The position numbers were made by a program, and so were the translations under genes. The notes beneath the pieces were generated by a model. That model searched no databases. It saw only the letters and a list, made by a program, of their open reading frames with translations, and had not been told where the DNA came from. DNA of 61,649 bases from the IMG/VR virus record IMGVR_UViG_3300026518_000001, positions 1 to 61,649 of that record. The stretch is one strand, 5' to 3'. The stretch is from a virus. Its lineage: Duplodnaviria; Caudoviricetes. Position 1 is the stretch's first letter, and each line of letters starts with the position of its first letter. Below, one piece after another: positions 1 through 61,649 of this stretch.

Positions 1-127
1 TTTTAGATCCAAAGAGGAAGGAATTACCAAGCTGGTGATTCTTCTTTTGGTTTAGTTTCTTCTTTAGGTTTATCTTCAATTACTGGTTTTTTCTCAATAT
101 CAGCTTTTAATTTATCTATACATTCTT
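1..127. repeat. 127-bp terminal direct repeat, left copy (circular assembly overlap)
   Basis: Identical to 61523..61649. It cuts through the SSB-like gene, and 127 is a common assembler k-mer length. Confidence 0.95.
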
Positions 128-602
128 GATCTCCAACTTTACAAGCTTTAACAAAATCAATATTTGTATATTGACCGCTAATTCTATGTCTAATACCAAT
201 AACTAATTTCTTACCTAGAATGTCACTTAATTGTAATGCTTCAATTTGTTTATTGAATTTTTCAATATTAATTTGTTTTGGTTGAACACTCATTAAATTA
301 AGATCAGCTGCTTTAAACACTTTACCTGCTTGAACAATACCAAATGCTAAATTACCTTTTGCATTCTTACTATTTCCTGTATGTCTAAACCACCATCTTA
401 AATTAATTTTATTTCCATCTTTTGTTTCAGTTTCTAAATTGAACCAATCATTCTTTTTACCACTTGCACTATCAATACCAGTTTCTACATAACAATTATT
501 AACTCTTACTTCATATACACCTGCTTCTGGTAATTCAAACCCTTTTGGTTCTTTTTCTACTGCTTCATTTAATTCATTTTCATTTATATCTAACCAATTC
601 AT
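24..602 (-). CDS. ssDNA-binding protein (N4 gp45 position, DUF669-like)
   Basis: N-terminal 'FELPEAGVYEVRV' OB-fold-like start and acidic tail ending in W; lies downstream of the Sak4-like ATPase. Confidence 0.6.
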   Translation of the reverse strand: MNWLDINENELNEAVEKEPKGFELPEAGVYEVRVNNCYVETGIDSASGKKNDWFNLETETKDGNKINLRWWFRHTGNSKNAKGNLAFGIVQAGKVFKAADLNLMSVQPKQINIEKFNKQIEALQLSDILGKKLVIGIRHRISGQYTNIDFVKACKVGDQECIDKLKADIEKKPVIEDKPKEETKPKEESPAW

Positions 603-665
603 CTGCTCTCCTTGTGATTGTTTTATTAAATATGTGAAGGTTTTTTAATATCTGGTTCTATCCAC

Positions 666-869
666 CTACAAACCACTTAATGCTTTACTAACTTCTTCAA
701 AATTATGATCCAACGTAACAACCATAACTCTAACCTTATCATCAAATCTTTTAAAGATATATCCAAATCCATTATGAACTATATATTTGCTTATATGAGC
801 TTTATCATATTTCATATTGTTTTGGATCTTTTTAACAAACTCTTTATCTGGTATATAATCTAATATCAT
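666..869 (-). CDS. hypothetical protein
   Basis: ORF translationally coupled to the ATPase stop codon. Confidence 0.6.
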   Translation of the reverse strand: MILDYIPDKEFVKKIQNNMKYDKAHISKYIVHNGFGYIFKRFDDKVRVMVVTLDHNFEEVSKALSGL

Positions 870-1534
870 TTTAATCCATAATAATCTTTGATAGTATCAT
901 CAATTAACTTTAAATCATTTGGTATTAGTAACTTATTAAACATATCTATTGGACTCTTAGCTACATCATCATCAGTTCTTTTATTAGTTAAGAACCAATA
1001 ACCATCATCATTCTTTAATGATTGTAGAACTATTGTCATCATTGCTGGAATATCAACTTTCTCACTTATTAACTTACCAATAGTTCTAAAAGTTAATCTT
1101 CCAAATTGACTTTCATCTAAATGATTAATCATATAAACTCTACAATCTTCACTAGTTTCTTCAGCTGCTTTTAATACATCATAATATTGTTTAGCTAATT
1201 CTTCAAATCTAGTAAATCCTTTCTCTTGGATCGTATCCATAAACTTTTTAACCATAATAAAAGTTGAATCATCAATAATAATTCTTTTCTTACCCATTTT
1301 ATTTAAACCTTGAATAGCACCAGCTATTTGAGTTCCATTATCTAACATTAGATAATCACCTTTCTTAGTATCTTTATCAAAAGGTTTTAATTTATTTCTA
1401 AATGGTAATGGTTTAGATAAAACTCTTATAATTACAGTATCTTCATCAAATCTTAAATCATTATTTAATAATGTTCTAATACTACTTGATTTACCTGTTC
1501 CGCTAAATCCAGCTATTCCTACTAATATTCCCAT
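866..1534 (-). CDS. Sak4-like AAA ATPase / single-strand annealing protein
   Basis: Walker A GFSGTGKSS and Walker B IIIDDS; sits between primase and SSB, as N4 gp44 does. Confidence 0.8.
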   Translation of the reverse strand: MGILVGIAGFSGTGKSSSIRTLLNNDLRFDEDTVIIRVLSKPLPFRNKLKPFDKDTKKGDYLMLDNGTQIAGAIQGLNKMGKKRIIIDDSTFIMVKKFMDTIQEKGFTRFEELAKQYYDVLKAAEETSEDCRVYMINHLDESQFGRLTFRTIGKLISEKVDIPAMMTIVLQSLKNDDGYWFLTNKRTDDDVAKSPIDMFNKLLIPNDLKLIDDTIKDYYGLK

Positions 1535-1535
1535 A

Positions 1536-3602
1536 TTATTTCTCCTTTATTCTTATAAACTTTCTAATTTCACTATCTTTAAGTGGTTCACTTAACATAC
1601 TATTCATCTCATAAACAACTTCCATTGCATAACTTGCATTAGTTAAATCTCTAACAAAAGATCCGAGTCTAAACAAGTTATTAACTCTATTACCTTGATA
1701 AGTACTATTTACAAACCATTTCTTTATTCCATAGATTCTCCTTTCAATTTGATCCATATCATTTGGCTCCAAATCTTCTAATGAAGCTTTTTGTTTCTCA
1801 ATAAGTTCATTTACTTTTGTTTCTGGTAGAAATGGTATTGGATCAAATAATTCAACTTTATTAATATATATTTCAGCTTCTTTATTTGTAAACCATAATC
1901 TACTTATATCTTTTGCATTATGATCATATATTTGTAAATTAATAGCATTAGCTATATTGTCATATAATTCAATAAATCTATCACTATCAATAGTTACAAC
2001 ATACTTAAAAGGAATAATAACTCTGAATCTATCAGCAATTACTCCTCCTTTATCTTTCTGATGACTTTTAGTTGTATAGATTAAATAAGTATATGGTTTA
2101 AGATATTCGATAGTATCTTCTAATGAACCACCTTCATCAATATCTAATGCAATACAATTGATATTTGGTAATACATTATCTTTCTTTCTCTTACCATCTT
2201 TAAAATGAGCTAATACAAAATTACTTATATCACTATGGATAAGTTTCTCTATTGATTTAGTAGATCCAAACATTGGTACTTCCATTGAATTATATTGAGT
2301 ACTCTTTTCTCTTTTGTCAGGATTTGGAATACTTAATATAATCTTATTTGGATCACTATTATCTAATGATTTAATTTCAAAGAACTTAATCTTTGAACCT
2401 TTTGTTATTAACCTTTCATTATTTCTATAACAATATTCTTCAACTAAAAACATATCTTCTGAAAATGTACTTCTATTAAATACATCTTTTTCTAATATCT
2501 CAGATTTATTTGTTTTACCAAGTTGTTTAATAATGCTATAAATTCTTTTATGTTGAGGTTCAACACTAAATAACTTCTCAGTTGTATTTCTACATCTTTT
2601 ATAGAAGTTATATGAATATTCAATATCATCATAACTAATTATATTTCTACCTAAACTAATAGCATTTAATGCTGCTAATTTAACTATCTTAGATAATGAT
2701 CCAAGTTCTGCTGAATATCTTTCATCATATTTATTACCATTAGCAAAGTCTATTAGTTCTTGTTGGATCAAATGAATATATTCATTAGCTGTTTCATCAC
2801 AAGTAATTGCTTTATAATTGCCTTTAAACGAATCTTTTATATTATTTGATATAAAGTTATTAACATTAATAAATCTATCAGTATGAGATTCTATTGGACT
2901 ATTAATCACTATATCACTTGGTTCTGAATAAAAGATAAACGATCTTCTATAAATACCACTTGATAAAGCTTTATTAAAGAACTCAAAGTTTTTCATACTT
3001 CTTTTTAATCCAACAGATGATCCAAGCAATAACATATTAGAAACAATACCTTTTATATTTTCATTAATAGATGATTTAATCATCTTACCTAATAATTCTC
3101 CATCATATAATTGTTTCATTTGTTCTAAATTTGAATCTCTGATAATATCCATTATTTCATCGTGAGTAATATTCAATGATCCAACGAATGAATTAGATAA
3201 AGCTAATGCTCTAAGATAAATACCTTCACTAGTTCCATGAATACTATTCATAAATGATGGTAAATAACTTTTTAAATCTACTTCATTACCATCAATCATT
3301 ATCCTATCTTCCTCAATAATTCCTGTTCCTTTTTTATATCCACTTTGTAAAGCATTATTCCACTTCTTTGGATCTTCTAAATATTCTTTATACATTATAG
3401 ATGCTATTGCTGATTTACCACTACCACTTGGTAATAAAGCGATACCAAAGAAATTAATCTTTTCCTTCTTATTTAGATAATGAACTTCTGGTTGTATAAC
3501 ACCTAATATAGATGAAGTATAGAACCAAAATTCCATTTCAACAAGTTCCGTTGGAGATTTAAATTGTAGTTTTTGATGAATATAATTATATAAGTGCTTC
3601 AT
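1536..3602 (-). CDS. primase-helicase fusion (N-terminal DUF3987-like P-loop domain, C-terminal AEP primase + PriCT), N4 gp43-like
   Basis: PSGSGKS Walker A and HDE Walker B; AEP motifs IALDIDEG, YTTKSH and RFRVIIP; GNRVNNLF PriCT-like end. The ATG at 3602 with an AAGGAAG RBS is preferred over the GTG at 3644. Confidence 0.8.
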   Translation of the reverse strand: MKHLYNYIHQKLQFKSPTELVEMEFWFYTSSILGVIQPEVHYLNKKEKINFFGIALLPSGSGKSAIASIMYKEYLEDPKKWNNALQSGYKKGTGIIEEDRIMIDGNEVDLKSYLPSFMNSIHGTSEGIYLRALALSNSFVGSLNITHDEIMDIIRDSNLEQMKQLYDGELLGKMIKSSINENIKGIVSNMLLLGSSVGLKRSMKNFEFFNKALSSGIYRRSFIFYSEPSDIVINSPIESHTDRFINVNNFISNNIKDSFKGNYKAITCDETANEYIHLIQQELIDFANGNKYDERYSAELGSLSKIVKLAALNAISLGRNIISYDDIEYSYNFYKRCRNTTEKLFSVEPQHKRIYSIIKQLGKTNKSEILEKDVFNRSTFSEDMFLVEEYCYRNNERLITKGSKIKFFEIKSLDNSDPNKIILSIPNPDKREKSTQYNSMEVPMFGSTKSIEKLIHSDISNFVLAHFKDGKRKKDNVLPNINCIALDIDEGGSLEDTIEYLKPYTYLIYTTKSHQKDKGGVIADRFRVIIPFKYVVTIDSDRFIELYDNIANAINLQIYDHNAKDISRLWFTNKEAEIYINKVELFDPIPFLPETKVNELIEKQKASLEDLEPNDMDQIERRIYGIKKWFVNSTYQGNRVNNLFRLGSFVRDLTNASYAMEVVYEMNSMLSEPLKDSEIRKFIRIKEK

Positions 3603-3655
3603 AGTTCTTCCTTTTTTATATATAAAATAATACTCTATAAGCACTTAGAGAGTGC

Positions 3656-4201: not shown

Positions 4202-4213
4202 TTCTATTCTCCT

Positions 4214-5746
4214 TTAAAATGGTATTTCTTCTTGTTCTTCTAACTCATTTGCTAACCAAGGATATTTCTCTAATGTAGCTTCATAGAACCAACTAGGGAA
4301 ATATTTAACTCCATATAATTTCTTCTTTGGATCTCTAAGAATATTATTTATTCTTGTTTTTAATGCTTTTACATATGATCTCCTTTTATTTATTAAAATA
4401 AATCTATCTTCATATTCTAAACAATCACTAACAATTTCATCTAATCTATCTTGTTTATAGACCCAACCTCTAATAGCTTTATGAGCTTTAAATGTAATAT
4501 CTAATAATTCTTCTATATCATTAGTTAATTCAAATTCATATTTAAGTTCATTTAATAATCCACCTTTCTTAAATTCTTCAAGATATATCTCTATTTTCTT
4601 TGGATCCAAATCAACTAATTCATCATCAGTTTTACTAAAATAAAACTCTTCATCATTTTTCTTTTTATCTTCATATAATTGTTTATCTATTTCATCTTTA
4701 AATCCAGTGAAATGTTTTCTTGGATCTTCTAATCTAAATATATTATCAGTAAAATCATATAGGTATTTATCTTTGTTTTCTGGATGTTTTCTTACTAACC
4801 TTCCAGCTATTTGAAAATATAAATTATATGATTCAGTTGGTCTAAGATTAATTAATACTTCTGTATTACTTGCATCGAATCCAATATTGATTTTGGAAAT
4901 TGATACAAGACAATTTAAGCTATTATTTTTAAAGTTAGCTATATTTGTATCATTTTCCTTAGAACTTCTCTTAGAATGGATTACAGAAGCATTAATCTTT
5001 ATATCTTTTAACCATAATCCAACAAGTTCTGCATGATCTATATTAGAACATACAATTAGTGTTTGTTTAGATCCAACATTTTCCAAATAGAATTGTTTAA
5101 AATACTTTTCAAACTCTTTTGTATCATATAGCTTCTTTATATCTCCAAGATTATAATCACCTGTAGATGATGATAAACTATTAAAATCTAATGTTTTAAT
5201 AACACTTGGAACAATTAACTTATATGGAGCCAAATAACCTTTATTAGTAAGATTTTCTATATTAGCTTCTCCAATAATATAATTCATATCAAATCTTATT
5301 CCATTGGGTCTAAAAGGAGTTCCACTAAATAATATTTCTTTAACTGGTTTAATATATTTTTTAATTTCAATATATCTATCAGCTTCAGTTCTCTTATGTC
5401 CTTCATCTGATAATAAAACTACATTATTGAAGCTCATCTCTTTGGCTCTATTGATTAAAGTCTGATCCATTGCTATATAGATATCATCTTTGCCTTTTCT
5501 TTTATCAGAAGCTTTAATAACAGTGGGATCCAAATCAATGGTTCTACAAGTATCATATAATTGATCTATTAATGCTGATATATCAGTTGATATAATTACT
5601 TCATATCCTTGATTATGATAATACTTAGCTAAATAAGCTATCATAATTGACTTTCCTGAACCAGTACAAGCTTCTACCATTAAAGATTGATTATTTGATC
5701 CAACAACCTTATCTACTATATCTTGTTGATAATCTCTTAGTTTCAT
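4214..5746 (-). CDS. superfamily 2 DExH helicase
   Basis: LRDYQ Q-motif, ACTGSGKS, DEGH, SGTP, GFD and QIAGRLVR motifs. Confidence 0.9.
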   Translation of the reverse strand: MKLRDYQQDIVDKVVGSNNQSLMVEACTGSGKSIMIAYLAKYYHNQGYEVIISTDISALIDQLYDTCRTIDLDPTVIKASDKRKGKDDIYIAMDQTLINRAKEMSFNNVVLLSDEGHKRTEADRYIEIKKYIKPVKEILFSGTPFRPNGIRFDMNYIIGEANIENLTNKGYLAPYKLIVPSVIKTLDFNSLSSSTGDYNLGDIKKLYDTKEFEKYFKQFYLENVGSKQTLIVCSNIDHAELVGLWLKDIKINASVIHSKRSSKENDTNIANFKNNSLNCLVSISKINIGFDASNTEVLINLRPTESYNLYFQIAGRLVRKHPENKDKYLYDFTDNIFRLEDPRKHFTGFKDEIDKQLYEDKKKNDEEFYFSKTDDELVDLDPKKIEIYLEEFKKGGLLNELKYEFELTNDIEELLDITFKAHKAIRGWVYKQDRLDEIVSDCLEYEDRFILINKRRSYVKALKTRINNILRDPKKKLYGVKYFPSWFYEATLEKYPWLANELEEQEEIPF

Positions 5747-5775
5747 TTGATCTTGTTCCTCCTTTTAATTTTGTT

Positions 5776-6582
5776 TTAGTCATCTTTAAATTTCTTTTCC
5801 ATTAAAGCTTTAATTGTTTTATTCATTTCAGCTAATTGAGCTAAATCTAAATTTTTACTTCTTACTAAATTAATACATTCTTTTACATCATCATCTTTTG
5901 GTTTATAATCAATTATTTCTTTTTCTTTCTTTTTCTTTCTACTAATATAATCCATTATTGAAGATAAATTTGTATAATACTTTCCATTGTCAAGTTTAAC
6001 TTTTCCATTGTTTAATAATGTATCTAATTTATTTATTCCAAGTTCTTTAGCAATAGTTTCTGCTTTTGATATATATGTTCTATCTGTTCCATATTTAATT
6101 GCATATGATTGTTTGGTTCCACCATTTTCAATATAATCGAAATATGCTTGTATAGCTTTTTGACTTTTTGTCAAATTTCTTCTTGCATTTTTACTCATCA
6201 CTATTTCCTTTATCTCACTTAATCTTGTGTTTCTTGGTATTTCTGAATATAATATATATTCACAACCAAGTTCTTTTAGAGCTTTTGTTCTATGTCTTCC
6301 ATCTACTATTAACCCACGATATAAAAGTATAGGTTCTTGTTGTCCAGTTTGTAATATTGAATATTTCAATTGTTCAAATTCTTGATTATCCATCAATGGA
6401 TTTATTTTTGATATTTCATGTTCTCCTTTAACTACATTATGGATTAATCCAAACTTTATTGATTTATCTACTGTTGATGCTTCAATATACTCTAATGATT
6501 CATTTATATCCATTCCGTTCTTTCGTAACTCTTTCAGTTGTTGTAATTGTTTTGCTTTCATTTGCTTTTCTGTTAATAACAT
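5776..6582 (-). CDS. ParB/Srx N-terminal domain protein with HTH
   Basis: LKYSILQTGQQEPI..IVDGRHR ParB box, NARRNLT, and an HTH-like segment YAIKYGTDRTYISKA. Confidence 0.8.
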   Translation of the reverse strand: MLLTEKQMKAKQLQQLKELRKNGMDINESLEYIEASTVDKSIKFGLIHNVVKGEHEISKINPLMDNQEFEQLKYSILQTGQQEPILLYRGLIVDGRHRTKALKELGCEYILYSEIPRNTRLSEIKEIVMSKNARRNLTKSQKAIQAYFDYIENGGTKQSYAIKYGTDRTYISKAETIAKELGINKLDTLLNNGKVKLDNGKYYTNLSSIMDYISRKKKKEKEIIDYKPKDDDVKECINLVRSKNLDLAQLAEMNKTIKALMEKKFKDD

Positions 6583-6625
6583 TAATGTCCTTTATTTTGG
6601 TATTTGTAAAAGATATGCGGTCAGT

Positions 6626-7171: not shown

Positions 7172-7189
7172 ATCATCTCCTTTGTTTTT

Positions 7190-9234: not shown

Positions 9235-9550
9235 CTTATCTCCTTTAATTCAGCTTCATCAAAATCATATTCTTGTTCATCACTAAAACTATCTTCATAT
9301 GTTGGATAACATTCAAGATAACAATCTGGTTCTACACTAGAACCAAATCCTTGTTTTAAAAAACATTCAGCATCTTTTTTATTTTTAAATAGAAACTTAG
9401 TACATCCATAACTATCAACTCTCATATAATTAGGTACAACAACTTTATATTTATACCATCCTTTTGGATCGCTTCTATTTCATCATAAAGTTTTTCTAAT
9501 TGTTTTTTATGATATCTAACTTGTTCTTCTAATATTTTTATATTATCCAT
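9231..9550 (-). pseudogene. frameshifted gene (MDNIKILEEQ... joined to ...DPKGWYKY..MRVDSYG)
   Basis: The 64-aa ORF has no RBS and its frame stays open upstream to about 9477. One extra base there would join it to the ATG at 9550. Confidence 0.5.
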
Positions 9551-9608
9551 TTAATACTACTTCTACTTTATATTTTAAATCAATTAAACCTCTCTCATAT
9601 TGGTTCTT

Positions 9609-9914
9609 TTAAGCAGTTACTTTATTAAGATCAATAACTAATGAATCAATTAAATCGACTAGTTCATCTTTATCCATATATTGAGATATTAATTCTTTAA
9701 TATTATAAGTTATAGTTTCAACATCTTCATTATAATATTCATTATACTCTTCATCATATCTTATTGGAATTTCAATAGATATTTTTACTTGATCATCTCC
9801 ATTATATATCCAATCGTTAATCATTTCTATAATATTTTCATTTATGAATTTATCTACATCATAATTACCATCAATTGCGTCTTTTTTGTCTATTAAATAA
9901 CTATATGTTGCCAT
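9609..9914 (-). CDS. hypothetical acidic protein
   Basis: AAGGAG RBS; the frame stays open for 21 more codons past the TAA. Confidence 0.65.
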   Translation of the reverse strand: MATYSYLIDKKDAIDGNYDVDKFINENIIEMINDWIYNGDDQVKISIEIPIRYDEEYNEYYNEDVETITYNIKELISQYMDKDELVDLIDSLVIDLNKVTA

Positions 9915-9961
9915 ATCATTCTCCTTTAATTATATTTGTTTTTGATAATTAATCTTTTTTT

Positions 9962-10153
9962 TTAATCTTTCCAAAAATAACCTCTGTATTTTTCATTTTT
10001 TTTAATCGCACTAACAAGGTTACTATATGCTATACCAAGCGTATAAGCCACTTCTTTTGCACTTATCCATTCTTTTACTACTTCACCTGTGTTTAGGTCT
10101 ATTTGAGCAATAGGCCATCTTCTTACAGAATTATAATTTCTATTAACCATCAA
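9962..10153 (-). pseudogene. NUMOD1 DNA-binding domain fragment (homing endonuclease remnant)
   Basis: IAQIDLNTGEVVKEWISAKE..GYFWK resembles the C-terminus of 59857..60567; no nuclease domain and no clear RBS. Confidence 0.55.
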
Positions 10154-10205
10154 TTTTTCACATATTCTTTTCCACTTATTTTAATACTTCTTCCTTTTTG
10201 TTTAA

Positions 10206-10481
10206 TTATTTTAATTGCTCAATTTCTTCTATTTCTATACTTACAATATCATCCCAATCAAATCTATTGGAACCATTGTAGAAATCAAACTCAATATAGC
10301 TATTCATAGCTTGTAATTTCTTTTCTTGATATGTATTTAGTTTAATATTTTCATCTTCTATTATTTCTATTAACTTTTCTTTTAACAAGTTAATATCATA
10401 AGACACATATTTTGGTTCCAAAATTTGAATTAATTCTCCATCCGAATCAAAACTTGCTTTATAAATATTTAAAATATACAC
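10206..10481 (-). CDS. hypothetical protein
   Basis: GTG start with GGAG RBS. Confidence 0.6.
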   Translation of the reverse strand: MYILNIYKASFDSDGELIQILEPKYVSYDINLLKEKLIEIIEDENIKLNTYQEKKLQAMNSYIEFDFYNGSNRFDWDDIVSIEIEEIEQLK

Positions 10482-10482
10482 C

Positions 10483-11022
10483 TTAATCTCCTTCTAAATT
10501 AAATCTACCAGAATTTAAAATGTCACATATTTTCTGTGCATCTTCTTTTGTTTTGAAATAAACATGAAAAAGATTTCCTGATTGATTAAAACTATAATCA
10601 TGAAAATTTTTTTTATTTTCAAAAATATAAAAATTATATTTATCATACTGAAATTCATATCCTCTACTATCGACACACTCTTGGTCTCTTAGTGCCAACA
10701 ATCTTAAATATTTTTTAGCTTGTTTTAATGAAGCATAATTATTATCTATATTAAAATAAGCTATTTGTAATGTATTTGAATAATCTCTTTTTAATTTAAT
10801 CTTTGGTCTTTCTGGGATATCGAATTTGATTTCATTCCAGAATAGAGTTTGATTTTCACTAGTTCTTTTTGTTCCATTCATATTATAATTTATAATATAA
10901 TTTAATTTATCAAATTTTATTGCTAATGGATATTCTCCTCTCATTTTTTCTATTAATGTACCCCAACCATATTCAAAGCTCCAAACTCTATTACCTATTT
11001 TAATTCCATTGAAATAGATCAT
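10483..11022 (-). CDS. hypothetical protein with a YFxGIKxGxRVWS..YGWG N-terminal domain
   Basis: The first ~65 aa are paralogous to 11712..12359. Confidence 0.7.
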   Translation of the reverse strand: MIYFNGIKIGNRVWSFEYGWGTLIEKMRGEYPLAIKFDKLNYIINYNMNGTKRTSENQTLFWNEIKFDIPERPKIKLKRDYSNTLQIAYFNIDNNYASLKQAKKYLRLLALRDQECVDSRGYEFQYDKYNFYIFENKKNFHDYSFNQSGNLFHVYFKTKEDAQKICDILNSGRFNLEGD

Positions 11023-11023
11023 T

Positions 11024-11440
11024 TTATTTTCCTTTGTTTAGTAGTTCTGGATTTTCAAATATATTTCCGATAATTTCAAATTCGAAATTATCTTCAAGAT
11101 GATTACCTATTACATTTTCGTTTCTTATAGGCTTCAATCTAAAAGCCCCAAACGCAAAATATACTTCTCTAACTTCTCCTGCGAAAAATCCATATTTATC
11201 ATAATTATCTGGAATTTTTACAATATCGCCCTCATAAATTTCTTTTTTATTTTTATCTTTAAGTCCTGTATATTTAATAAGCTTATCATATAAAGATACA
11301 TTCTCATCAAATTCATCAGTTGCACTTGAGAAAATAGTCCAGCTACATTCCTTGGCTTTAAAATCTATCCAATCTAAAACTGGAGTTATTATTGTTTTAT
11401 CTTTTAAATTTATCACTGCTTTGAGTTTATTATTTGTCAT
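11024..11440 (-). CDS. YopX family protein
   Basis: YTGLKDKNKKEIYEGDIV and EIIGNIFENPELL signature motifs. Confidence 0.9.
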   Translation of the reverse strand: MTNNKLKAVINLKDKTIITPVLDWIDFKAKECSWTIFSSATDEFDENVSLYDKLIKYTGLKDKNKKEIYEGDIVKIPDNYDKYGFFAGEVREVYFAFGAFRLKPIRNENVIGNHLEDNFEFEIIGNIFENPELLNKGK

Positions 11441-11690
11441 TTTTCCCTCCTTCTTTGTACAAACAAGCTTCGAATATTGCTCGATTTGTTTTGTTCATTT
11501 CTTTAATCCTATTATCCAATTCTTCTTTATCTAACATTTTTAATGAGTTAATATTTAAAGATATTGAATTAGCTAAATATTTTAACTCCTAATACATTCT
11601 CTAATTACCTGTTATTGCGAATGCTTCACTTAGACTTTTTAAATCTAAAGCTATAGATTTTAAATCTTGATAATGTTTTTCTTTTTCCAT
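11430..11690 (-). pseudogene. 86-codon gene interrupted by two in-frame TAG codons
   Basis: AGGA RBS, ATG at 11690, TAG at 11601-11603 and 11589-11591; the frame continues to a TAA that overlaps the YopX start. Confidence 0.7.
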
Positions 11691-11711
11691 TGTTTTTCCT
11701 TTTTTTTAAAT

Positions 11712-12359
11712 TTAATACCAATCCTCACCATCTGCTTCTTCCAAACTCTTTTTAGTCGGAATATAACAAGTTATCTCTTTATTTTTATCTATTAAAGCTC
11801 TCCAAACATATGATTCTGAATCAAACATTTCATCGTTAGGAACTGCTTCTTTGTAAGAATCGATATTATCTATACCTAAACAATAAGAATCTGCTTTTTT
11901 TAAAAGTTCTTCAGTTAGATTTTTAAATCTTACCCAAAAAACTTTTTCAGCTCCATCTAATTTGGCATCATATTCAGCTCCAGCTTGTAAGAGCTTATAT
12001 GAATCTTCAATACTTACTTGAGCAGAATAGCTATCCCTGTTTGACCATTTGTAATAAGGAACTACCGCTCTTTTACATAGAGAAATTAATTGCTCTCTAC
12101 TAGTAAACTCTTCTATATGATTTCTCATATACTCCATTTTTTCTTTCTCAATTCTTTTTGGTTCTTTATCATTCCAGAAAAGAGTTTGAGAAGATGGTTT
12201 TTTGTTTTCCTTTTTCTCTCCATTCATATAATAATAAACAAAATTACCCCTCTTAAACTCCACTCCAAAATCATCTTCTGAAATATCAAAAGCTTCTCCC
12301 CAACCATAATTAATACTCCAAACTCTATCACCTTCTTTAATTCCATCGAAATAGCTCAT
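11712..12359 (-). CDS. hypothetical protein with a YFxGIKxGxRVWS..YGWG N-terminal domain
   Basis: N-terminus paralogous to 10483..11022; AGGAG RBS. Confidence 0.7.
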   Translation of the reverse strand: MSYFDGIKEGDRVWSINYGWGEAFDISEDDFGVEFKRGNFVYYYMNGEKKENKKPSSQTLFWNDKEPKRIEKEKMEYMRNHIEEFTSREQLISLCKRAVVPYYKWSNRDSYSAQVSIEDSYKLLQAGAEYDAKLDGAEKVFWVRFKNLTEELLKKADSYCLGIDNIDSYKEAVPNDEMFDSESYVWRALIDKNKEITCYIPTKKSLEEADGEDWY

Positions 12360-12371
12360 TTGCTCTCCTTT

Positions 12372-12719
12372 TTATTTATTTTTCAATATCCACTCACAAG
12401 CCTTAAATATAGCTTCTATTTCTGTTTTAAATTCTTCTTTAAAAGCAAAAATAGTATTTTTTGTATAAGGTTCTAATATATGGCAATTATAATGCCATAA
12501 ATCTTTATTTTCTACATAACCATCAATAGATGGCTCAATGTTAAATCCTTTACTATAAGCCCATTCTTTACATAAATAAGCAAATTCATAAATATTTACA
12601 GAGCCAAAAACACTTTGTCCGTCAAGAGATATTAAAATATTTTTTGTTATTTCTATTTTAATATTTTTATATTTTTTATATTCTGGCATTATTTCCAAAA
12701 ATAATTCTTTACTAACCAT
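12372..12719 (-). CDS. hypothetical phage protein
   Basis: NIYEFAYLCKEWA..TEIEAIFKACEWIL; AAGGAG RBS. Confidence 0.7.
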   Translation of the reverse strand: MVSKELFLEIMPEYKKYKNIKIEITKNILISLDGQSVFGSVNIYEFAYLCKEWAYSKGFNIEPSIDGYVENKDLWHYNCHILEPYTKNTIFAFKEEFKTEIEAIFKACEWILKNK

Positions 12720-12780
12720 ATTTTATTCTCCTTTGTATTTATTTTTTAGAATAATTTTTACATCTCATTTTGTAATTTTT

Positions 12781-12999
12781 TTATTTGTTTTTTTTAAATT
12801 TATTACATCCAAAATTTTCATCAACTCTTAAATTAACAACAACACCTACATCATCGTTAGCTTCTAATTTAATTCCTGCTCCTACACTATTATTGTGAGT
12901 GTACTCTTTATCATCAATCCAAATAGTTTCACATATACCATTATTATAATATTTACAATATTTACACTTTTTTGATTCAAAATTATTTTCTTTAATCAA
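12781..12999 (-). CDS. small Cys-rich protein
   Basis: CKYCKY..C..FGCNKF pattern. Confidence 0.6.
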   Translation of the reverse strand: MIKENNFESKKCKYCKYYNNGICETIWIDDKEYTHNNSVGAGIKLEANDDVGVVVNLRVDENFGCNKFKKNK

Positions 13000-13199
13000 T
13001 TCTTTGATTTCTTTTTTTTATATCTTGATTTTTTACATCATAAATTAAATCTTTTACATCATAATAAAAACGATATATTTATTTAAGATCATCCATATCC
13101 ATAGAATTAAAGCTACGATAATCATACATCGCAAGATGTTCTATTTGTTTAAAAGAATAAACTATTTTTTTCTACTATTTTTTCTTGATCATATTTCAT
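12991..13199 (-). pseudogene. degraded gene (frameshift in an A7 run plus an in-frame TAA)
   Basis: RBS and ATG at 13199. Removing one A at 13165-13171 gives a long frame that is broken once by a TAA near 13082. Confidence 0.5.
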
Positions 13200-13250
13200 T
13201 TTATTTTCCTTATTTTTAACAAAAATATTGGTGTTAAAAATAAAACTAAA

Positions 13251-13736
13251 CTAGTTATTAACATTTATTTTCCTTAAATATTTTATTGCTTTACTTACTT
13301 TTCTTACATATTCTATATTAGAGTAATATCCTCCATTATATGATCCAACCATCTTTACCCATAACCATTTACCTGAATATCCTCTTTGAATCCAAAAAGA
13401 CTTCCAATAAAGTAATTCAGATATTGCTTGTTTAGAAGCAAAGTTTTTATCTTTAATTAATCTCTCTAACATTCTTGATCTATTCCAAGATGTATTAGGT
13501 ATATTAAGTCTATGCAATACTGATGTTACTAATATATGATATGCTGAGCCACTTGGATCACTTAAATTAATATTATATTTTCCAAGTGATGATTCAACAT
13601 ATGCAATACCAGCTAAAGTCCAACCTAATTGATACTTTGATCCAACTTTGTAGCTGTATTTAAAACATTGTATTTGTTGATTGTTTAAAGCTTGTAGAGA
13701 GTTAATTATAAAAAATAAGAATATTACTACTCTCAT
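13251..13736 (-). CDS. exported lytic transglycosylase (SLT-like)
   Basis: Signal-peptide-like N-terminus, catalytic IAYVESS motif, SYNGG and YVRKV motifs. Confidence 0.8.
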   Translation of the reverse strand: MRVVIFLFFIINSLQALNNQQIQCFKYSYKVGSKYQLGWTLAGIAYVESSLGKYNINLSDPSGSAYHILVTSVLHRLNIPNTSWNRSRMLERLIKDKNFASKQAISELLYWKSFWIQRGYSGKWLWVKMVGSYNGGYYSNIEYVRKVSKAIKYLRKINVNN

Positions 13737-15581: not shown

Positions 15582-16565
15582 TCAAGAGAGCATATACTCA
15601 CTCTCTTTAATTGCTTCTATTATTTTCTCTTTTCTTGTTGGATCATATGGATTAACTTTTAATCCTAAGTCTTTAAGTATATTTATTAATAGTTCATCTT
15701 CTATCATAGTTACAAATGCTTCTTTATAACAATCTATTAAGAATCCTGCATCAGTAATACTTACTTGGAATGAATCATGAATTACACTAATAGGTTTATT
15801 ATTACTTTTAAATTTATTTACTACATATCTTAAGATCCAACTATCGAGGCTATGAACCGCATTAGGAGCCAAACTTCTCCATTGGTCTAAATCACCTTGA
15901 TTCACATAATATGTATATGGTAATTCTGTATCATTGTATTTTATTGGTTCTGTTACTGATACTTCTACTGGCACGTAACAAACCATATCTGGTAGTTTCC
16001 AAGTATGATATTTATTATCAGTCCAGCATTTTCTTAATATATTCATTATTTTAACAGGACCTGTAAATTCATCATTAAGATAATCAAAGAATAATTCTGC
16101 TACTTCATCTCCTAATAATTCTTTTATTTTTGCAGTACTATTATAGAAATATGTCATTAATGGTTTTTTAATATCATTTCTTGTAATATTTTCTAATCCA
16201 AACATATCAGTAAATTCATTAGCAATATCAGTATATACATCTCTTCTTTCTTTGGTTCCAATATTAACTTTTTTACCACTATTAGTATCTAAACTAATAG
16301 CACTTAATATTTGTAATCCACTTGCAGTAGCATCCAGATATATTGTTGGATAATCTACTTTATTACCATTAACTAAATCTACTGCTTCCTGTAATCTTTT
16401 ATGTTCTAATACATTTGTTGGCTCATAAGAACCATTAATATAATCACTTAATAGTTCTTTACCTTTATTAATTCTATTATTCCAACTTTCTTTATCATAT
16501 CCAGCTTCATTAGCAATACTAATATACATCCATTCTATTACACTTATATTTTCATAACTTATCAT
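15582..16565 (-). CDS. N4-like RNA polymerase II, subunit 2 (catalytic half)
   Basis: T7-family motifs LDATASGLQ (A), RNDIKKPLMTYFY (B), APNAVHSLD and IHDSF (C). Confidence 0.95.
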   Translation of the reverse strand: MISYENISVIEWMYISIANEAGYDKESWNNRINKGKELLSDYINGSYEPTNVLEHKRLQEAVDLVNGNKVDYPTIYLDATASGLQILSAISLDTNSGKKVNIGTKERRDVYTDIANEFTDMFGLENITRNDIKKPLMTYFYNSTAKIKELLGDEVAELFFDYLNDEFTGPVKIMNILRKCWTDNKYHTWKLPDMVCYVPVEVSVTEPIKYNDTELPYTYYVNQGDLDQWRSLAPNAVHSLDSWILRYVVNKFKSNNKPISVIHDSFQVSITDAGFLIDCYKEAFVTMIEDELLINILKDLGLKVNPYDPTRKEKIIEAIKESEYMLS

Positions 16566-16575
16566 ATCTATCTCC

Positions 16576-59856: not shown

Positions 59857-60567
59857 TCAATCATTTACATACTCCCAAATATAACCATAAGCTGATTTAG
59901 CATGTTTTTTTAAAACTGCTACTATATTAGATCTTTTTATATTTAAAGTTTTAGCTGCTTCACTAGCTGTTGTAAATTTTCTCATAATATCTCCTGTATC
60001 TTTATTTATTTGATATATTACTCTAGCATTTGGATGATCTTTTCCAGATAAATATGTATCTTTTCTATTTATTTTATGTATTATTATATTATCTTCTACA
60101 TTGTTTAAAGTATATGGTAAATTATATTCTTTAACAGTTCTATTATATGCTATAGCAGCTTCTTTCTCTGTATTAAAGACTTCAATTTGTTTATTTTTAC
60201 CATCTATATATACAGTAGTTCTATATATACCACTATTTAATTTTGATACACCTTTATAACCTTTAAAGGTGTATCTTCTATTATTTGCTTGTTCTATATA
60301 ATTAGCCCATCTACAATTATCTGAATAATATCCTTTATTTACATCTATTCTGTCTATTGTTAGTTCATCTTTATATCCATTTGTTATAGCCCAGCTATAA
60401 AATAATGAAAAATCTTTTAACCATTCATCATAAATAGTTATCCCTCTTTCACCATAATTTTTATAAGCTGGATTATTTTTATTATAGCATCTAGCTAACA
60501 TATTTCTGAATATTACACCTAATCTAGTATTTCCTTTTCCTTTATACCTATTGTGCATATACTTCAT
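59857..60567 (-). CDS. HNH-type homing endonuclease with AP2 and NUMOD1 domains
   Basis: NMLARCYN..YGERGI..TIDRIDVNKGY..NCRWA..QANN; AP2 FNTEKEAAIAYN; NUMOD1 at the C-terminus. Confidence 0.85.
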   Translation of the reverse strand: MKYMHNRYKGKGNTRLGVIFRNMLARCYNKNNPAYKNYGERGITIYDEWLKDFSLFYSWAITNGYKDELTIDRIDVNKGYYSDNCRWANYIEQANNRRYTFKGYKGVSKLNSGIYRTTVYIDGKNKQIEVFNTEKEAAIAYNRTVKEYNLPYTLNNVEDNIIIHKINRKDTYLSGKDHPNARVIYQINKDTGDIMRKFTTASEAAKTLNIKRSNIVAVLKKHAKSAYGYIWEYVND

Positions 60568-60572
60568 ATGTT

Positions 60573-60749
60573 TTATTTTCTATCTTTTTCAATGCTTTGT
60601 TTTCTATATTCTTTATATAGTTTTGTAAGCTCTAAACTTAACTTTCTAGCTTTTACACCTGAAGTTTTAATACCTTTTTCAATATTTCTTTCTATCTCTT
60701 CAATTAACATTTCTGTTTTTACTTTAATATCTTCTAATAATTTATTAAT
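60573..60749 (-). CDS. 58-aa Hc1 (histone H1-like) family protein with an ATT start (not in the ORF track)
   Basis: EKGIKTSGVKARKLSLELTKLYKEYRKQS matches the Hc1 pattern; AAGGA 6 nt upstream of the ATT. Confidence 0.65.
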   Translation of the reverse strand: MNKLLEDIKVKTEMLIEEIERNIEKGIKTSGVKARKLSLELTKLYKEYRKQSIEKDRK

Positions 60750-60763
60750 TATTTATCCTTTGT

Positions 60764-61513
60764 TTAAAATACAGGTTCTTTTCTATATATTAGTTTCTCT
60801 TGGTTTACTGGACATTTATCAGCATATGAACAATAATATTTACATTTCATATGAACTATTTGTCCTTTAACTTTTCTAATATATGTATCTTTACAAGGTT
60901 GTAATTCCATTACTCCACTATGAAGTAGATCCAACTCTTTCTTAATAGATGTTACTTTATCTTCTAATTTATAATCTTCTATATAAGGTACATCTACTAT
61001 TTGGATCGTAGGAACTTCAACTCCTGTTCTACTATTTAATCCACCATCTTTTAATATGAATATAAGTTTCATATCATATTTCTTATCATACTTATGTTCC
61101 ATTAAATATCTATAAGCATTTACTTGCCAAGTATAATGATGATTTTCTAAATCTTTTTTATATTGTTTAACTGTATATTCTTTAGTAGATTTAATATCAT
61201 AAATTGCTTTATTTAACCAATCAATAATATCTATACTACCTGTAAGCTTTAATCCACTAATTTCTATTGGATCGCATTTATATTCAGTAACAATATCTTC
61301 ATCAAGTTCTAAAGCTTTATCAATACCTAGATGAATAATTGATCCAAGTGAGTTCTGTCCAAAATTAGTATCTTTAATTACTCCATATTTTTGTCTAAGG
61401 AATATTTGCGTAATATCACTACCTAATTCACTTGCACTTATCTCATCAACTCTTGGATTAGTATTACCTTGATATTGAGTAGCTTCTAATATCTTTTGTT
61501 TTATACAACTCAT
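60764..61513 (-). CDS. PD-(D/E)XK Cas4-like exonuclease
   Basis: GSIIH, TGSID..YDIKST, QVNAY and C-terminal C..C...C.....C. Confidence 0.85.
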   Translation of the reverse strand: MSCIKQKILEATQYQGNTNPRVDEISASELGSDITQIFLRQKYGVIKDTNFGQNSLGSIIHLGIDKALELDEDIVTEYKCDPIEISGLKLTGSIDIIDWLNKAIYDIKSTKEYTVKQYKKDLENHHYTWQVNAYRYLMEHKYDKKYDMKLIFILKDGGLNSRTGVEVPTIQIVDVPYIEDYKLEDKVTSIKKELDLLHSGVMELQPCKDTYIRKVKGQIVHMKCKYYCSYADKCPVNQEKLIYRKEPVF

Positions 61514-61522
61514 TTATCTTCC

Positions 61523-61649
61523 TTTTAGATCCAAAGAGGAAGGAATTACCAAGCTGGTGATTCTTCTTTTGGTTTAGTTTCTTCTTTAGGTTTATCTTCA
61601 ATTACTGGTTTTTTCTCAATATCAGCTTTTAATTTATCTATACATTCTT
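61523..61649. repeat. 127-bp terminal direct repeat, right copy
   Basis: Identical to 1..127. Confidence 0.95.

What the first reader, a model, noticed from the sequence alone, without database searches (positions are those of the whole stretch)
1..61649. Genome-wide hyper-iterated TTGGATC/GATCCAA (family TTGGNTC) motif
Seen: counting by eye, there are about 100 copies of GATCCAA/TTGGATC in the first 40 kb, and the density continues beyond that. About 5 per genome would be expected at ~25% GC. GAACCAA/TTGGTTC is also frequent, and GAGCCAA and GACCCAA occur less often. The motif is on both strands and in all reading frames (giving DP-K/N/T, LD-Q/L/P, V/F/I-GS, EP-K/N and WI in proteins), also between genes, and sometimes as the palindrome TTGGATCCAA (e.g. 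4600, 7725, 25950, 33940). Known: iterated short motifs such as cyanobacterial HIP1, Chi and DNA uptake sequences mark dedicated DNA-handling systems. No methyltransferase is recognisable in this genome. Inference: the motif is selected at the DNA level. It could be a priming site for the AEP primase (roughly one per 400 bp, either strand), a loading site for a genome-coating protein (ParB-like, HTH or Hc1), a self-mark protecting against the injected nuclease or host defence, or a host methylation/Chi-like signal. This is the best candidate for an undescribed system here.
Basis: partly seen in the sequence, partly recalled or inferred. Interest (0 to 1): 0.9.

Follow-up and report, generated by a model that had tools for sequence, protein, structure and literature searches.

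The report
Iterated heptamer code in N4-like phages
A seven-letter DNA word is written about 240 times, on both strands and regardless of genes, in this vent phage, and related words fill most N4-like phages including N4 itself, most likely marking where the phage's own primase starts DNA copies.

Summary
TTGGATC occurs 157 times (80+/77-) against 5.7 expected. In genes there are 141 copies against 42.8±4.6 after a shuffle that keeps amino acids and codons. The word lies in all six frames and at equal density between genes. Six positions are fixed and the fifth is free, so the word is TTGGNTC.

The window is a complete 61.5-kb, 24.5% GC N4-like podophage from hydrothermal-vent metagenomes.

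- The motif is not private to this phage. Words with the core TGG-N-T are the top over-represented 7-mer in 5 of 9 cultured Schitoviridae, 5 of 11 IMG/VR relatives and 23 of 30 metagenome relatives; chance is 2.3%. Each lineage has its own variant.
- In phage N4, TGGTTC occurs 220 times against 85.7 expected, while E. coli and T7 lack the enrichment.
- Same-strand copies avoid each other within 100 nt (4 pairs against 18.5) and opposite-strand copies do not. This points to strand-specific reading.

Best reading (about 0.45): these are selected start sites for the phage's MCM-like helicase / AEP primase (N4 gp43 family, 1536-3644). I found no paper describing this. The mechanism is inferred, not shown.

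The parts
1..61649 (.). Genome-wide iterated word TTGGNTC: 243 copies in all, with A 157, T 67, C 11 and G 8 at position 5. That is about 2 per kb per strand. Position -1 prefers G/T.
1536..3644 (-). Proposed reader: a fusion of an MCM-like AAA+ helicase with an AEP primase and a C-terminal helical bundle. It is a full-length homologue of phage N4 gp43. The database form starts at 3602.
   Evidence: PHROG 2135 'DNA primase', E 7.7e-59. BLASTP to N4 gp43: 23% identity, E 2e-29, over 681 columns. AF2 model pLDDT 87; Foldseek finds MCM chains at E 6e-8 and the S-2L PrimPol AEP domain 6zp9_A at E 6.5e-6. C-terminal model against 6zp9_A: E 4e-5. Invariant D58/D60 and H85 in A2.
866..1534 (-). Sak4-like ATPase / ssDNA-annealing protein directly downstream of the primase. 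The same order is annotated in Klebsiella phage FBKp27.
   Evidence: PHROG 2872, E 2.3e-59; annotation table
4214..5746 (-). SF2 helicase (ResIII/Helicase_C). Part of the replication module and a candidate reader in the Chi-like rival.
   Evidence: homologues in the flanks of 17 of 30 related loci
60764..61513 (-). PD-(D/E)XK exonuclease. A candidate reader in the Chi-like rival.
   Evidence: Pfam PF12705, E 2.8e-8; homologues in 20 of 30 related loci; N4 gp42 is a weak PD-(D/E)XK match, E 6e-4, below the Pfam cut-off
5776..6582 (-).
   Evidence: weak PHROG ParB-like hits, E 1e-7 to 1e-5; no Pfam hit; homologues in 3 of 30 related loci
9471..13341 (.). Low-motif island. It has 0 TTGGATC and 4 TTGGNTC (1.0/kb, against 3.5-5.4/kb elsewhere) and is the most atypical tetranucleotide stretch of the genome. 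Probably a recently acquired block of small genes of unknown function.
4600..4609 (.). Example of the palindrome TTGGATCCAA, with one copy of the word on each strand. There are 10 in the genome: 4600, 7725, 8064, 25950, 27715, 33940, 37044, 41392, 46501, 54582.
59857..60567 (-). HNH/NUMOD homing-endonuclease gene with no TTGGNTC copy, as expected of a recent mobile insert.
15582..17352 (-). The two subunits of N4-type RNA polymerase II. With TerL (20445-21986), portal, capsid and the giant virion RNA polymerase (46193-53587) they mark the phage as N4-like.
1..127 (.). Terminal overlap: bases 1-127 are identical to 61523-61649, so the contig closes on itself. One motif copy (6-12) is counted twice.

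Best explanation
TTGGNTC is the local version of a short DNA word with the core 5'-TGG-N-T-(C/T)-3'. This word is kept at high density on both strands of most N4-like phages.

I propose that it is the template recognition and start site of the phage's own helicase-primase, the N4 gp43 family, which in this window is 1536-3644. The enzyme would travel on single-stranded DNA, stop at the word, and start a primer with a purine opposite the 3' T or C. That gives a primer 5'-(G)A-N-CCAA-3'.

Six fixed bases would occur only once per 10-20 kb per strand in a 24.5% GC genome. Selection has therefore written the word into genes in every frame and into spacers, until each strand carries one about every 0.5 kb, which is the scale of Okazaki fragments.

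What is shown:
- the enrichment and its independence of coding;
- the fixed and free positions;
- strand-specific spacing;
- spread of the trait through the family;
- absence of N4's word from N4's host;
- the primase fold of the protein.

For: 1. DNA-level signal. 141 copies in genes against 42.8+-4.6 under a synonymous shuffle. All six frames are used, and spacers are as dense as genes.

2. Sharp recognition logic. Changing any of T1, T2, G3, G4, T6 or C7 leaves no significant enrichment (20 of 21 single-base variants at 0-1.7x; TcGGATC, at 2 copies, 4x but z 2.1). All four bases at position 5 are enriched 6-14x.

3. Strand-specific reading.
- Same-strand pairs 7-100 nt apart: 4 against 18.5+-4.4 for TTGGATC, and 13 against 38.0+-6.2 for TTGGWTC.
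- Opposite-strand pairs: 24 against 18.7, and 41 against 38.0.
- GATCCA has the lowest same-strand ratio of 138 frequent 6-mers, 0.32 against a median of 1.37.
- The same direction is seen in N4 (8 against 15.6 within 50 nt) and in L035, L036, L037, L043 and L077.

4. Family trait.
- N4: TGGTTC 220 against 85.7 and CTGGTTC 110 against 26.4. Over N4's first 50 kb the synonymous shuffle gives z 17.3 and 13.8, and all six classes are used.
- MIF8 and FBKp27 use CTGG(T/C)TT. A Luzseptimavirus uses TGG(T/C)TT.
- Vent relatives use TTGGTTCT (about 90 copies in 22 kb against 6-7), GTGGTTC (65 against 2.3), CTGGTTCC (41 against 1.9), GGGGTTC (29 against 1.5) and TTGGTAC (59 against 4.7).
- The top 7-mer holds TGGNT in 5 of 9, 5 of 11 and 23 of 30 loci, against a chance rate of 2.3%.

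5. Not from the host. In 50 kb of E. coli K-12, TGGTTC is 17 against 43.0 expected. In T7 it is 31 against 39.1.

6. Shared machinery. Of 36 N4 proteins, tblastn finds 10 in the window. The only replication protein among them is gp43. There was no hit for the DNA polymerase, the gp37 helicase or the SSB.

7. The protein has an MCM-like plus AEP primase fold. N4 gp43 carries PriCT_1 at 38.3 bits against a cut-off of 21.1.

8. Purine-start rule. In all 28 loci for which I derived an extended consensus, the last fixed base at the 3' end of the template word is C or T (the seeds were chosen by me). This fits the rule described in the passages of PMC10345425 returned by a term search.

9. Densities converge at 0.6-2.7 copies per kb per strand across phages of 24-55% GC.

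10. Likely recent inserts lack the word: the island 9471-13341 and the HNH gene.
Against: - No biochemical or primer-mapping data exist for any gp43-family enzyme in the papers I could search.
- Six fixed bases is longer than the 3-5 nt sites known for T7, T4, DnaG or pRN1 primases (recalled, and from the abstracts listed).
- T7's own pentamer sites are hardly enriched: GGGTC 94 against 57.3, TGGTC 141 against 124.8. There is therefore no precedent for selection on priming sites.
- The window shows no replication-linked orientation skew (80+/77-, no regional switch). N4 shows only 90+/130-.
- Spacing beyond 200 nt is near-Poisson, with CV 0.95-1.16.
- Having the primase is not enough. The records behind L002 and Vibrio phage D505 encode it yet show no strong word. 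Stenotrophomonas phage Piffle also shows none.
- L046 does not show same-strand avoidance (14 against 9.8).
- L099's word, TTGCTAC, departs from the TGG core.
- Other proteins travel with the motif: PD-(D/E)XK exonuclease, a Sak4-like ATPase, RNA polymerase II, virion RNA polymerase and terminase. Comparative data therefore cannot single out the primase.
- The metagenome loci were chosen by primase homology, so they cannot test primase absence.
Confidence: 0.45

Rival explanations
1. Chi-like control signal. The word is read on one strand by a translocating helicase-nuclease. This could be the phage's SF2 helicase with its PD-(D/E)XK exonuclease and Sak4-like annealing protein, or the host's RecBCD/AddAB. 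The word would switch the enzyme from degradation to recombination and so protect the linear genome and feed recombination-dependent replication.
For: Strand-specific reading, with nearby same-strand copies being redundant, is also what Chi-type sites would show. Exonuclease and helicase homologues lie in the flanks of 20 and 17 of 30 related loci. N4 gp42 is a weak PD-(D/E)XK match and gp44 is an AAA_24 ATPase.
Against: There is no polarity towards the genome ends or any regional switch of orientation in the window or in N4. For a host enzyme, the core is shared by phages of enterobacteria, Pseudomonas, Vibrio, Rhizobium, roseobacters and vent hosts, and E. coli itself under-represents TGGTTC at 17 against 43. 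From recall, no sequence-regulated lambda-Exo/RecE-type exonuclease is known.
Confidence: 0.15
2. Mutational or repair drive rather than selection for a function. A biased process keeps converting near-matches into the word, as proposed for HIP1 or very-short-patch repair. In a bolder form, DNA primers of fixed sequence laid down by the PrimPol-type enzyme stay in the genome ('primer imprinting').
For: Individual sites turn over fast. Only 1 of 9 window sites is a motif at the same place in the closest relative L001. Motif sites differ at 41-46% of positions, against 23.7% for the background. Clustered multi-base changes would fit patch-wise conversion. Acquired DNA lacks the word.
Against: A blind drive does not predict avoidance of nearby same-strand copies with normal opposite-strand counts. 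Single-mismatch neighbours are not generally depleted: 0.3-1.7x under the codon-order shuffle, and only TAGGATC is clearly low under the synonymous shuffle. No methyltransferase or Vsr-like gene was found in 40 scanned ORFs. The sample for one search is only 9+9 sites.
Confidence: 0.15
3. Binding site of a double-strand DNA-binding protein, such as the ParB-like 5776-6582, the HTH-like 53918-54505 or a histone-like protein. The protein would coat, compact, partition or silence the phage genome.
For: Density of one site per about 250 bp, sites on either strand, and palindromic TTGGATCCAA 10 times where about 1.4 would be expected from the base frequencies of the three letters that follow the word (my estimate). 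A free central base is common in protein sites (recall).
Against: Steric exclusion would not depend on orientation, nor reach 100-200 bp on one strand only. ParB-like homologues are in the flanks of 3 of 30 related loci. No tblastn hit fell in 5776-6582 or 53918-54505 among the 36 N4 proteins tried. The HTH call rests on sub-threshold Pfam hits.
Confidence: 0.1
4. Epigenetic self-mark or host-shared signal. The word would be the target of a host or phage modification enzyme, or a host uptake or 'self' sequence copied by the phage.
For: The favoured variant contains GATC. Outside the word GATC is not enriched: 85 copies, against 131 expected for the whole genome.
Against: From recall, targets of restriction-modification are normally avoided, not enriched. 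No methyltransferase was found. N4's word is absent from E. coli. Contigs whose names share the same numbering series carry different words. The host of the window is unknown, so its genome could not be checked.
Confidence: 0.07

Closest known systems
Primase recognition sites of phage T7 gp4 (5'-(G/T)(G/T)GTC-3'), T4 gp61 (5'-G(T/C)T-3') and the pRN1 AEP primase (GTG)
   Same: A short word read on single-stranded template DNA, with a pyrimidine at the start position so that the primer begins with a purine, present on both strands. T7's TGGTC even shares TGG-T. pRN1 shows that AEP primases with a helical bundle can be sequence-specific. Sources: abstracts listed, passages of PMC10345425, and otherwise recall.
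   Different: Those sites have 3-5 specified bases, are common by chance and are barely enriched (T7). Here 6-8 bases are fixed, the word is 6-30x enriched, and it differs between related phages. No priming assay exists for the gp43 family.
Chi sites (e.g. E. coli GCTGGTGG) and their counterparts in other bacteria
   Same: An over-represented 5-8-mer, read on one strand by a moving enzyme, independent of coding.
   Different: Chi belongs to the host, is co-oriented with replication and is specific to the host's RecBCD/AddAB (recall). Here the word belongs to the phage, is absent from E. coli and shows no orientation polarity.
DNA uptake sequences (Neisseria DUS, Haemophilus USS) and cyanobacterial HIP1
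   Same: Hundreds of copies of a short word on both strands, imposed on coding sequence.
   Different: Those are properties of cellular genomes; HIP1 is a palindrome and DUS/USS serve transformation (recall). Here the carrier is a lytic-type phage family, the word is asymmetric, and it changes between close relatives.
MCM-primase fusions of prophages and PrimPol of cyanophage S-2L (for the protein 1536-3644)
   Same: An AAA+ MCM-like helicase module together with an AEP catalytic domain. The best structural match of the C-terminal half is 6zp9_A.
   Different: Here the helicase lies at the N-terminus and the AEP at the C-terminus, followed by a PriCT-type helical bundle. Sequence identity to solved structures is 10-17%, and phmmer against PDB sequences found nothing relevant.

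Membership tests
Primase initiation (template recognition) site | Read on one strand of ssDNA: copies on the same strand are functionally linked and copies on the opposite strand are independent | tested here: met
   Same-strand pairs within 100 nt: 4 against 18.5 (P<=0.001 in 1000 placements). Opposite-strand pairs: 24 against 18.7. Lowest of 138 control 6-mers.
Primase initiation (template recognition) site | Pyrimidine at the template start position, giving a purine-initiated primer | tested here: met
   The last fixed 3' base is C or T in all 28 loci analysed. The orientation and the seeds were chosen by me, so this is a consistency check, not a proof.
Primase initiation (template recognition) site | Sites on both strands at about Okazaki-fragment spacing | tested here: met
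   0.6-2.7 copies per kb per strand in 13 related loci, about 2 in the window and about 1.6 in N4.
Primase initiation (template recognition) site | The primase starts primers at the word in vitro or in vivo | not testable with these tools
   No assay data were found.
Primase initiation (template recognition) site | The word is present only where the matching primase is present | tested here: inconclusive
   All motif-bearing genomes examined have a gp43 homologue. So do L002's record and Vibrio D505, which have no strong word. No gp43-less N4-like genome was available.
Chi-type recombination hotspot | Orientation bias relative to replication or to the DNA ends | tested here: not met
   80+/77- with no regional switch. 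N4 has 90+/130- with the same sign in all 14 full 5-kb bins.
Chi-type recombination hotspot | The same word is enriched in the host chromosome | tested here: not met
   For N4 and E. coli K-12, TGGTTC is 17 against 43 expected in 50 kb. The window's host is unknown.
DNA uptake sequence / HIP1-type host repeat | A property of the cellular genome, shared passively by its phages | tested here: not met
   E. coli and T7 lack N4's word. Metagenome contigs whose names share one numbering series carry different words.
HIP1-type repeat | Palindromic word with a cognate methyltransferase | tested here: not met
   TTGGNTC is asymmetric. No methyltransferase domain was found in the 40 ORFs scanned.
Archaeo-eukaryotic primase (AEP) superfamily, for protein 1536-3644 | Catalytic motifs DxD and sxH, and the AEP fold | tested here: met
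   D58, D60 and H85 are invariant in 19 sequences. Foldseek to the S-2L PrimPol AEP domain gives E 4e-5 to 6.5e-6 with probability 1.00, though TM is only 0.44-0.47.
Archaeo-eukaryotic primase (AEP) superfamily, for protein 1536-3644 | Pfam PriCT_1 helical domain above threshold | tested here: inconclusive
   Window protein: 17.6 bits against a cut-off of 21.1. Its homologue N4 gp43: 38.3 bits. Precomputed PF08708 on 6 of 33 relatives.
Schitoviridae (N4-like phages), for the genome | Giant virion RNA polymerase, two-subunit RNA polymerase II, and N4-type terminase, portal and capsid | tested here: met
   tblastn of N4 proteins: TerL 46% identity (E 2e-137), portal E 4e-70, capsid E 3e-21, RNAP2 E 5e-27, and the vRNAP C-terminal part E 1.5e-13. 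PHROG hits. The vRNAP candidate is shorter (2464 aa against 3500), and no N4-type DNA polymerase was found.

The most novel reading that the evidence does not exclude
N4-like phages carry a fast-evolving 'priming code'. The helicase-primase of each lineage recognises its own 6-8-base word, and the whole genome is rewritten to match within the divergence time of close relatives. The window and a relative with 77% nucleotide identity already use different words at different places. In the boldest form, the word spreads by itself: the PrimPol-type enzyme lays down DNA primers of fixed sequence on near-matching templates, and these primers remain in the daughter strand. The enzyme would then imprint its own recognition site on the genome, a self-reinforcing mutational drive.
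Probability: 0.12. Interest if true: 0.95.

Novelty: new variant of a known kind. Interest (0 to 1): 0.82.

Why it matters
Iterated functional words such as Chi, uptake sequences and KOPS have each exposed a DNA-handling machine. Here a comparable signal, up to 30-fold enriched, runs through a whole phage family. That family includes the model phage N4, whose replication start mechanism is poorly known, and I found no description of the signal in print.

If the word is the primase site, three things follow:
- It would be the longest and most variable primase specificity known.
- It would be the first case in which priming sites visibly shape codon and amino-acid choice.
- It would offer a way to read primase specificity directly from uncultured genomes.

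It also gives a practical marker. The word's density distinguishes resident from recently acquired DNA in these phages. The hypothesis can be tested at once in E. coli with N4.

Tried and rejected
Considered and rejected, or led nowhere.

1. Codon or dipeptide artefact: rejected by the two shuffles and by six-frame and spacer use. TTGGTTC is partly coding-driven: 33 of its 59 genic copies are GAA-CCA-A (Glu-Pro), and its z is only 6.3.
2. General GATC or TTGG bias: rejected.
3. Regular spacing: not found. CV is 0.95-1.16. Only the short-range same-strand deficit stands.
4. Fixed-distance inverted pairs, as for a dimer site: apart from the 10 palindromes, no preferred distance.
5. Close relatives among cultured phages: megablast of 24 kb found none.
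6. Primase relatives in IMG/VR by single sequence: none. The alignment-based metagenome scan worked.
7. Whole-record searches of the metagenome contigs for terminase and RNA polymerase II: records not held. I could therefore not test whether the 91-112 kb contigs (L077, L090, L103) are N4-like. tblastn in the 22-kb flanks found a vRNAP-like piece in L077 and L087 only.
8. Host hunt with ThyX in genome contigs: no relative found. No tRNA genes. The host remains unknown.
9. Sequencing runs: 4 coded runs from 2 studies, all labelled hydrothermal vent metagenome, and no RNA holder listed.
10. Laying their contigs on 4000-20000:
   - The island 9471-13341 is present in the runs X2 and X3.
   - Summed depth is raised in parts of the island and also at 14.7-15.2 and 17.4-17.9 kb. 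The many short-sided joints are uninformative.
   - Of the 40 listed differences, one (7289) hits a TTGGATC copy, which is too few to test constraint.
   - 525 further differences were not shown.
11. phmmer of the primase against PDB sequences: only chance-level hits.
12. Literature. These searches found no paper on an iterated word in N4-like phages or on gp43 specificity: 'bacteriophage N4'+primase+'recognition sequence'; 'N4-like'+overrepresented+motif+genome-wide; 'primase recognition sites'/overrepresented/'phage genome'; Schitoviridae/primase/'template sequence'; the words GAACCAG, TGGTTC, CTGGTTC, GATCCAA, TTGGATC; N4-like/hydrothermal vent/phage/Campylobacterota; 'bacteriophage N4'+gp43+'DNA replication'. 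I saw listings and abstracts only, except for passages of PMC10345425 and PMC4889955 (nothing on N4 gp43). Subscription journals and supplements were not searchable, so earlier notice in print cannot be excluded.
13. Tree-based co-variation of primase and word: not run, because relatives share both by descent.
14. The apparent GGTTCGA word in L109 and L111: not counted. It matches the tRNA T-arm consensus as I recall it and may come from tRNA genes, which I did not check.

Limits.
- Gene calls are my own longest-ORF heuristic.
- Several metagenome loci are near-duplicates (L035-37, L042/43, L072/75, L109/111, L063/71), so the tallies overstate independence.
- The window's own record may be left out of the collections.

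Full report
What the window is.
The window is the whole record. It is 61,649 bases at 24.5% GC. A 127-base overlap joins its two ends, so the unique genome is 61,522 bp. Its terminase is 46-54% identical to those of N4-like phages. It also encodes both subunits of N4-type RNA polymerase II, an N4-type portal and capsid, a 2464-residue protein whose C-terminal part matches the N4 virion RNA polymerase, and a full-length homologue of N4 gp43. No homologue of the N4 DNA polymerase, gp37 helicase or SSB was found by tblastn. Near-identical DNA is held by four coded sequencing runs from two studies, all labelled hydrothermal vent metagenome. The host is unknown: there are no tRNA genes, and a ThyX search in genomes found nothing.

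TTGGATC occurs 157 times, 80 on the plus strand and 77 on the minus strand. Dinucleotide shuffles expect 5.7, with a largest value of 13. A second-order Markov model expects 15.5, and this is the top 7-mer at z 36. Flanking positions carry almost no information, except that G/T is preferred at -1.

Within 81 ORFs, a shuffle that keeps every amino acid and each gene's codon usage gives 42.8±4.6 copies, against 141 observed. Shuffling codon order gives 10.5. The word is used in all six orientation/phase classes and is slightly denser in spacers, at 3.0/kb against 2.5/kb.

A scan of all 21 single-base variants shows that T1, T2, G3, G4, T6 and C7 are each required. Twenty variants sit at 0-1.7 times the codon-order null; the 21st, TcGGATC, has only 2 copies (4x, z 2.1). 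Position 5 is free: A is enriched 13.7x, G 8.9x, C 6.8x and T 6.1x. The word is therefore TTGGNTC, with 243 copies in all, or about one per 500 nt on each strand.

How the copies are arranged.
There is no regional orientation skew and no clustering. Copies on the same strand avoid each other at short range. For TTGGATC there are 4 pairs at 7-100 nt against 18.5±4.4 expected. For TTGGWTC there are 13 against 38.0±6.2. Opposite-strand pairs are at expectation, 24 against 18.7 and 41 against 38.0.

This is not a general property of repeated words. Among 138 frequent 6-mers, the median same-strand ratio is 1.37, and the motif's GATCCA is the lowest at 0.32. The overlapping palindrome TTGGATCCAA, which puts one copy on each strand, occurs 10 times.

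Parts of the genome that look recently acquired lack the word. The block 9471-13341 has 1.0 TTGGNTC per kb against 3.5-5.4 elsewhere and is the most atypical tetranucleotide window. The HNH homing-endonuclease gene has none.

The trait belongs to the family, not to this phage.
- In 22 IMG/VR loci found with the terminase, several carry TTGGTTC at 8-9 times expectation. The closest relative, L001 (80% TerL identity), carries (C/T)TGGTTC 17 times in 4.2 kb.
- In phage N4, TGGTTC is the top 6-mer (220 against 85.7) and CTGGTTC the top 7-mer (110 against 26.4). Over N4's first 50 kb the excess survives the synonymous shuffle (z 17.3 and 13.8) and uses all six classes.
- Other cultured Schitoviridae show CTGG(T/C)TT (Erwinia MIF8, Klebsiella FBKp27), TGG(T/C)TT (a Pseudomonas Luzseptimavirus), TTGGTT(T/C) (Vibrio pVco-7), TTGG(C/T)TC (Rhizobium RHEph24) and TTGGTTT (Ruegeria V13). 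Stenotrophomonas Piffle and Vibrio D505 show nothing clear.
- A database search with the window's primase gave 32 relatives at 40-86% identity. An alignment-based metagenome scan gave 78 loci. Of the 30 loci of 9 kb or more, nearly every one has its own hyper-iterated word: TTGGTTCT (87-90 copies of TTGGTTC in about 22 kb against 6-7 expected), GTGGTTC (65 against 2.3), CTGGTTCC (41 against 1.9), CTGGTTCT, GGGGTTC (29 against 1.5), TGGCTC, TTGGCTGC, TTGGTAC (59 against 4.7) and TTGCTAC (39 against 3.5). In 13 of these loci the excess survives the synonymous shuffle (z 8.6-17.8) and spreads over the frames.
- The single most over-represented 7-mer contains TGGNT in 5 of 9 cultured Schitoviridae, 5 of 11 IMG/VR loci and 23 of 30 metagenome loci, and in 0 of 2 controls. 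Only 2.3% of all 7-mers contain it. Several loci are near-duplicates, so these counts overstate independence.

The word does not come from the host.
In 50 kb of E. coli K-12, TGGTTC is under-represented (17 against 43.0) and so is CTGGTTC (3 against 14.4). Phage T7, another E. coli phage, shows no excess (31 against 39.1).

Sites turn over quickly.
Across 2.4 kb aligned between the window and L001 (23.7% differences), only 1 of 9 window sites is a motif at the same place in L001. Motif sites differ at 41-46% of positions (small sample). The two phages already prefer different words, TTGGATC and YTGGTTC.

Who reads it?

Of 36 N4 proteins, tblastn finds ten in the window: the two RNA polymerase II subunits, the virion RNA polymerase, five head and packaging proteins, gp66, and gp43. 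The word is equally common in sense and antisense (71 against 70). That argues against a transcription signal. A packaging signal every 250 bp makes little sense.

gp43 homologues are annotated as primases across Schitoviridae: 558 phage records match, of which 150 match over at least 80% of the length. An AlphaFold model built on 30 relatives (pLDDT 87.2) has two parts. The N-terminal part matches MCM helicases (E 6e-8). The C-terminal part matches the AEP domain of the cyanophage S-2L primase-polymerase: E 6.5e-6 for the full model and 4e-5 for a separate C-terminal model, with probability 1.00 but TM only 0.44-0.47. Acidic and histidine residues that fit the AEP motifs are invariant. N4 gp43 carries the PriCT_1 helical domain above threshold.

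A primase works on single strands, which fits the strand-specific spacing. In all 28 loci for which I derived an extended consensus, the last fixed 3' base of the word is a pyrimidine. The primer would therefore begin with a purine, the general rule for primases (passages of PMC10345425). Copy density converges on 0.6-2.7 per kb per strand across GC contents of 24-55%, which is the scale of Okazaki fragments.

I therefore rate 'selected initiation sites for the gp43-family helicase-primase' as the best explanation, at about 0.45.

What weakens it.
- Nothing here shows priming.
- Six to eight fixed bases exceed any known primase site, and T7's own sites are hardly enriched.
- There is no orientation skew.
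- Some genomes with the primase have no strong word.
- L046 lacks the same-strand deficit.
- L099's word lacks the TGG core.
- At family level, a PD-(D/E)XK exonuclease and a Sak4-like ATPase are also shared. A recombination-control (Chi-like) role cannot be excluded.
- Because the metagenome loci were picked by primase homology, the comparison cannot separate the primase from the rest of the replication module.
- A mutational drive remains possible and would fit the fast, clustered turnover. On its own it does not predict the strand-specific spacing.

Comparison with what is known, and novelty.
The nearest known things are primase recognition sites, Chi, uptake sequences and HIP1. The word shares features with each but fails defining tests for Chi, DUS/USS and HIP1 (see the membership table). 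Seven literature searches found no description of an iterated word in N4-like phages and no report of gp43's template specificity. The library lacks most subscription journals, and supplements were closed.

I class the finding as a new variant of a known kind of feature, namely genome-wide functional words. It is unusual in three ways: it is phage-encoded, it runs through a whole family, and it varies by lineage.

Noticed in passing
window, whole genome: tblastn with 36 N4 proteins finds no DNA polymerase. The largest replication-module ORFs are the helicase-primase (702 aa) and an SF2 helicase (510 aa). This N4-like phage may rely on the host polymerase.
   Followed up: partly
L023+L032 (phage N4, EF056009): N4 has a single GATC in 70,153 bp where base composition predicts about 258. 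The vent phage, in contrast, writes GATC into its favoured word.
   Followed up: partly
window 56968-57720 (-): A metallo-beta-lactamase-fold protein with a sub-threshold match to the anti-Pycsar protein Apyc1 (25.1 bits against a cut-off of 50). The gene has no TTGGNTC copy. It is a possible counter-defence gene.
   Followed up: no
window 46193-53587 (+) and 40884-46181 (+): The candidate virion RNA polymerase is 2464 aa against 3500 in N4, and only its C-terminal part matches N4 (21% identity, E 1.5e-13). A 1765-aa ORF of unknown family lies directly upstream.
   Followed up: no
window 17400-19545: Divergent gene arrangement. Minus-strand early and middle genes run leftwards from about 19.4 kb, and plus-strand late genes run rightwards from 19546. 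By analogy with N4, the virion DNA ends probably lie here and not at the contig ends.
   Followed up: no
L046 1-19737: GTGGTTC is unusually dense in non-coding DNA (21 copies in 2.6 kb). There are same-strand runs around 3919-4765, unlike the same-strand avoidance seen elsewhere. This may be an origin-like cluster.
   Followed up: no
L099 1-21887: This primase relative carries TTGCTAC(A) (39 against 3.5) instead of a TGG-core word, the most divergent variant seen.
   Followed up: no
L109, L111: The top 7-mer is TCGAACC (11 against 1.3). As I recall, this is the reverse complement of the tRNA T-arm consensus, so it probably reflects a tRNA gene cluster and not the iterated word. I did not check this with a tRNA scan.
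   Followed up: no
window 10408-12009, 14680-15213, 17350-17883: In one coded vent run, summed contig depth is 2-3 times the phage's baseline in these bins. Other genomes in the community may share these segments.
   Followed up: no
L036, L037, L047: Opposite-strand motif pairs within 100 nt exceed expectation (45 against 30.8, 40 against 29.1, 29 against 15.4). This echoes the excess of palindromic TTGGATCCAA in the window. Paired sites on both strands may be favoured.
   Followed up: partly
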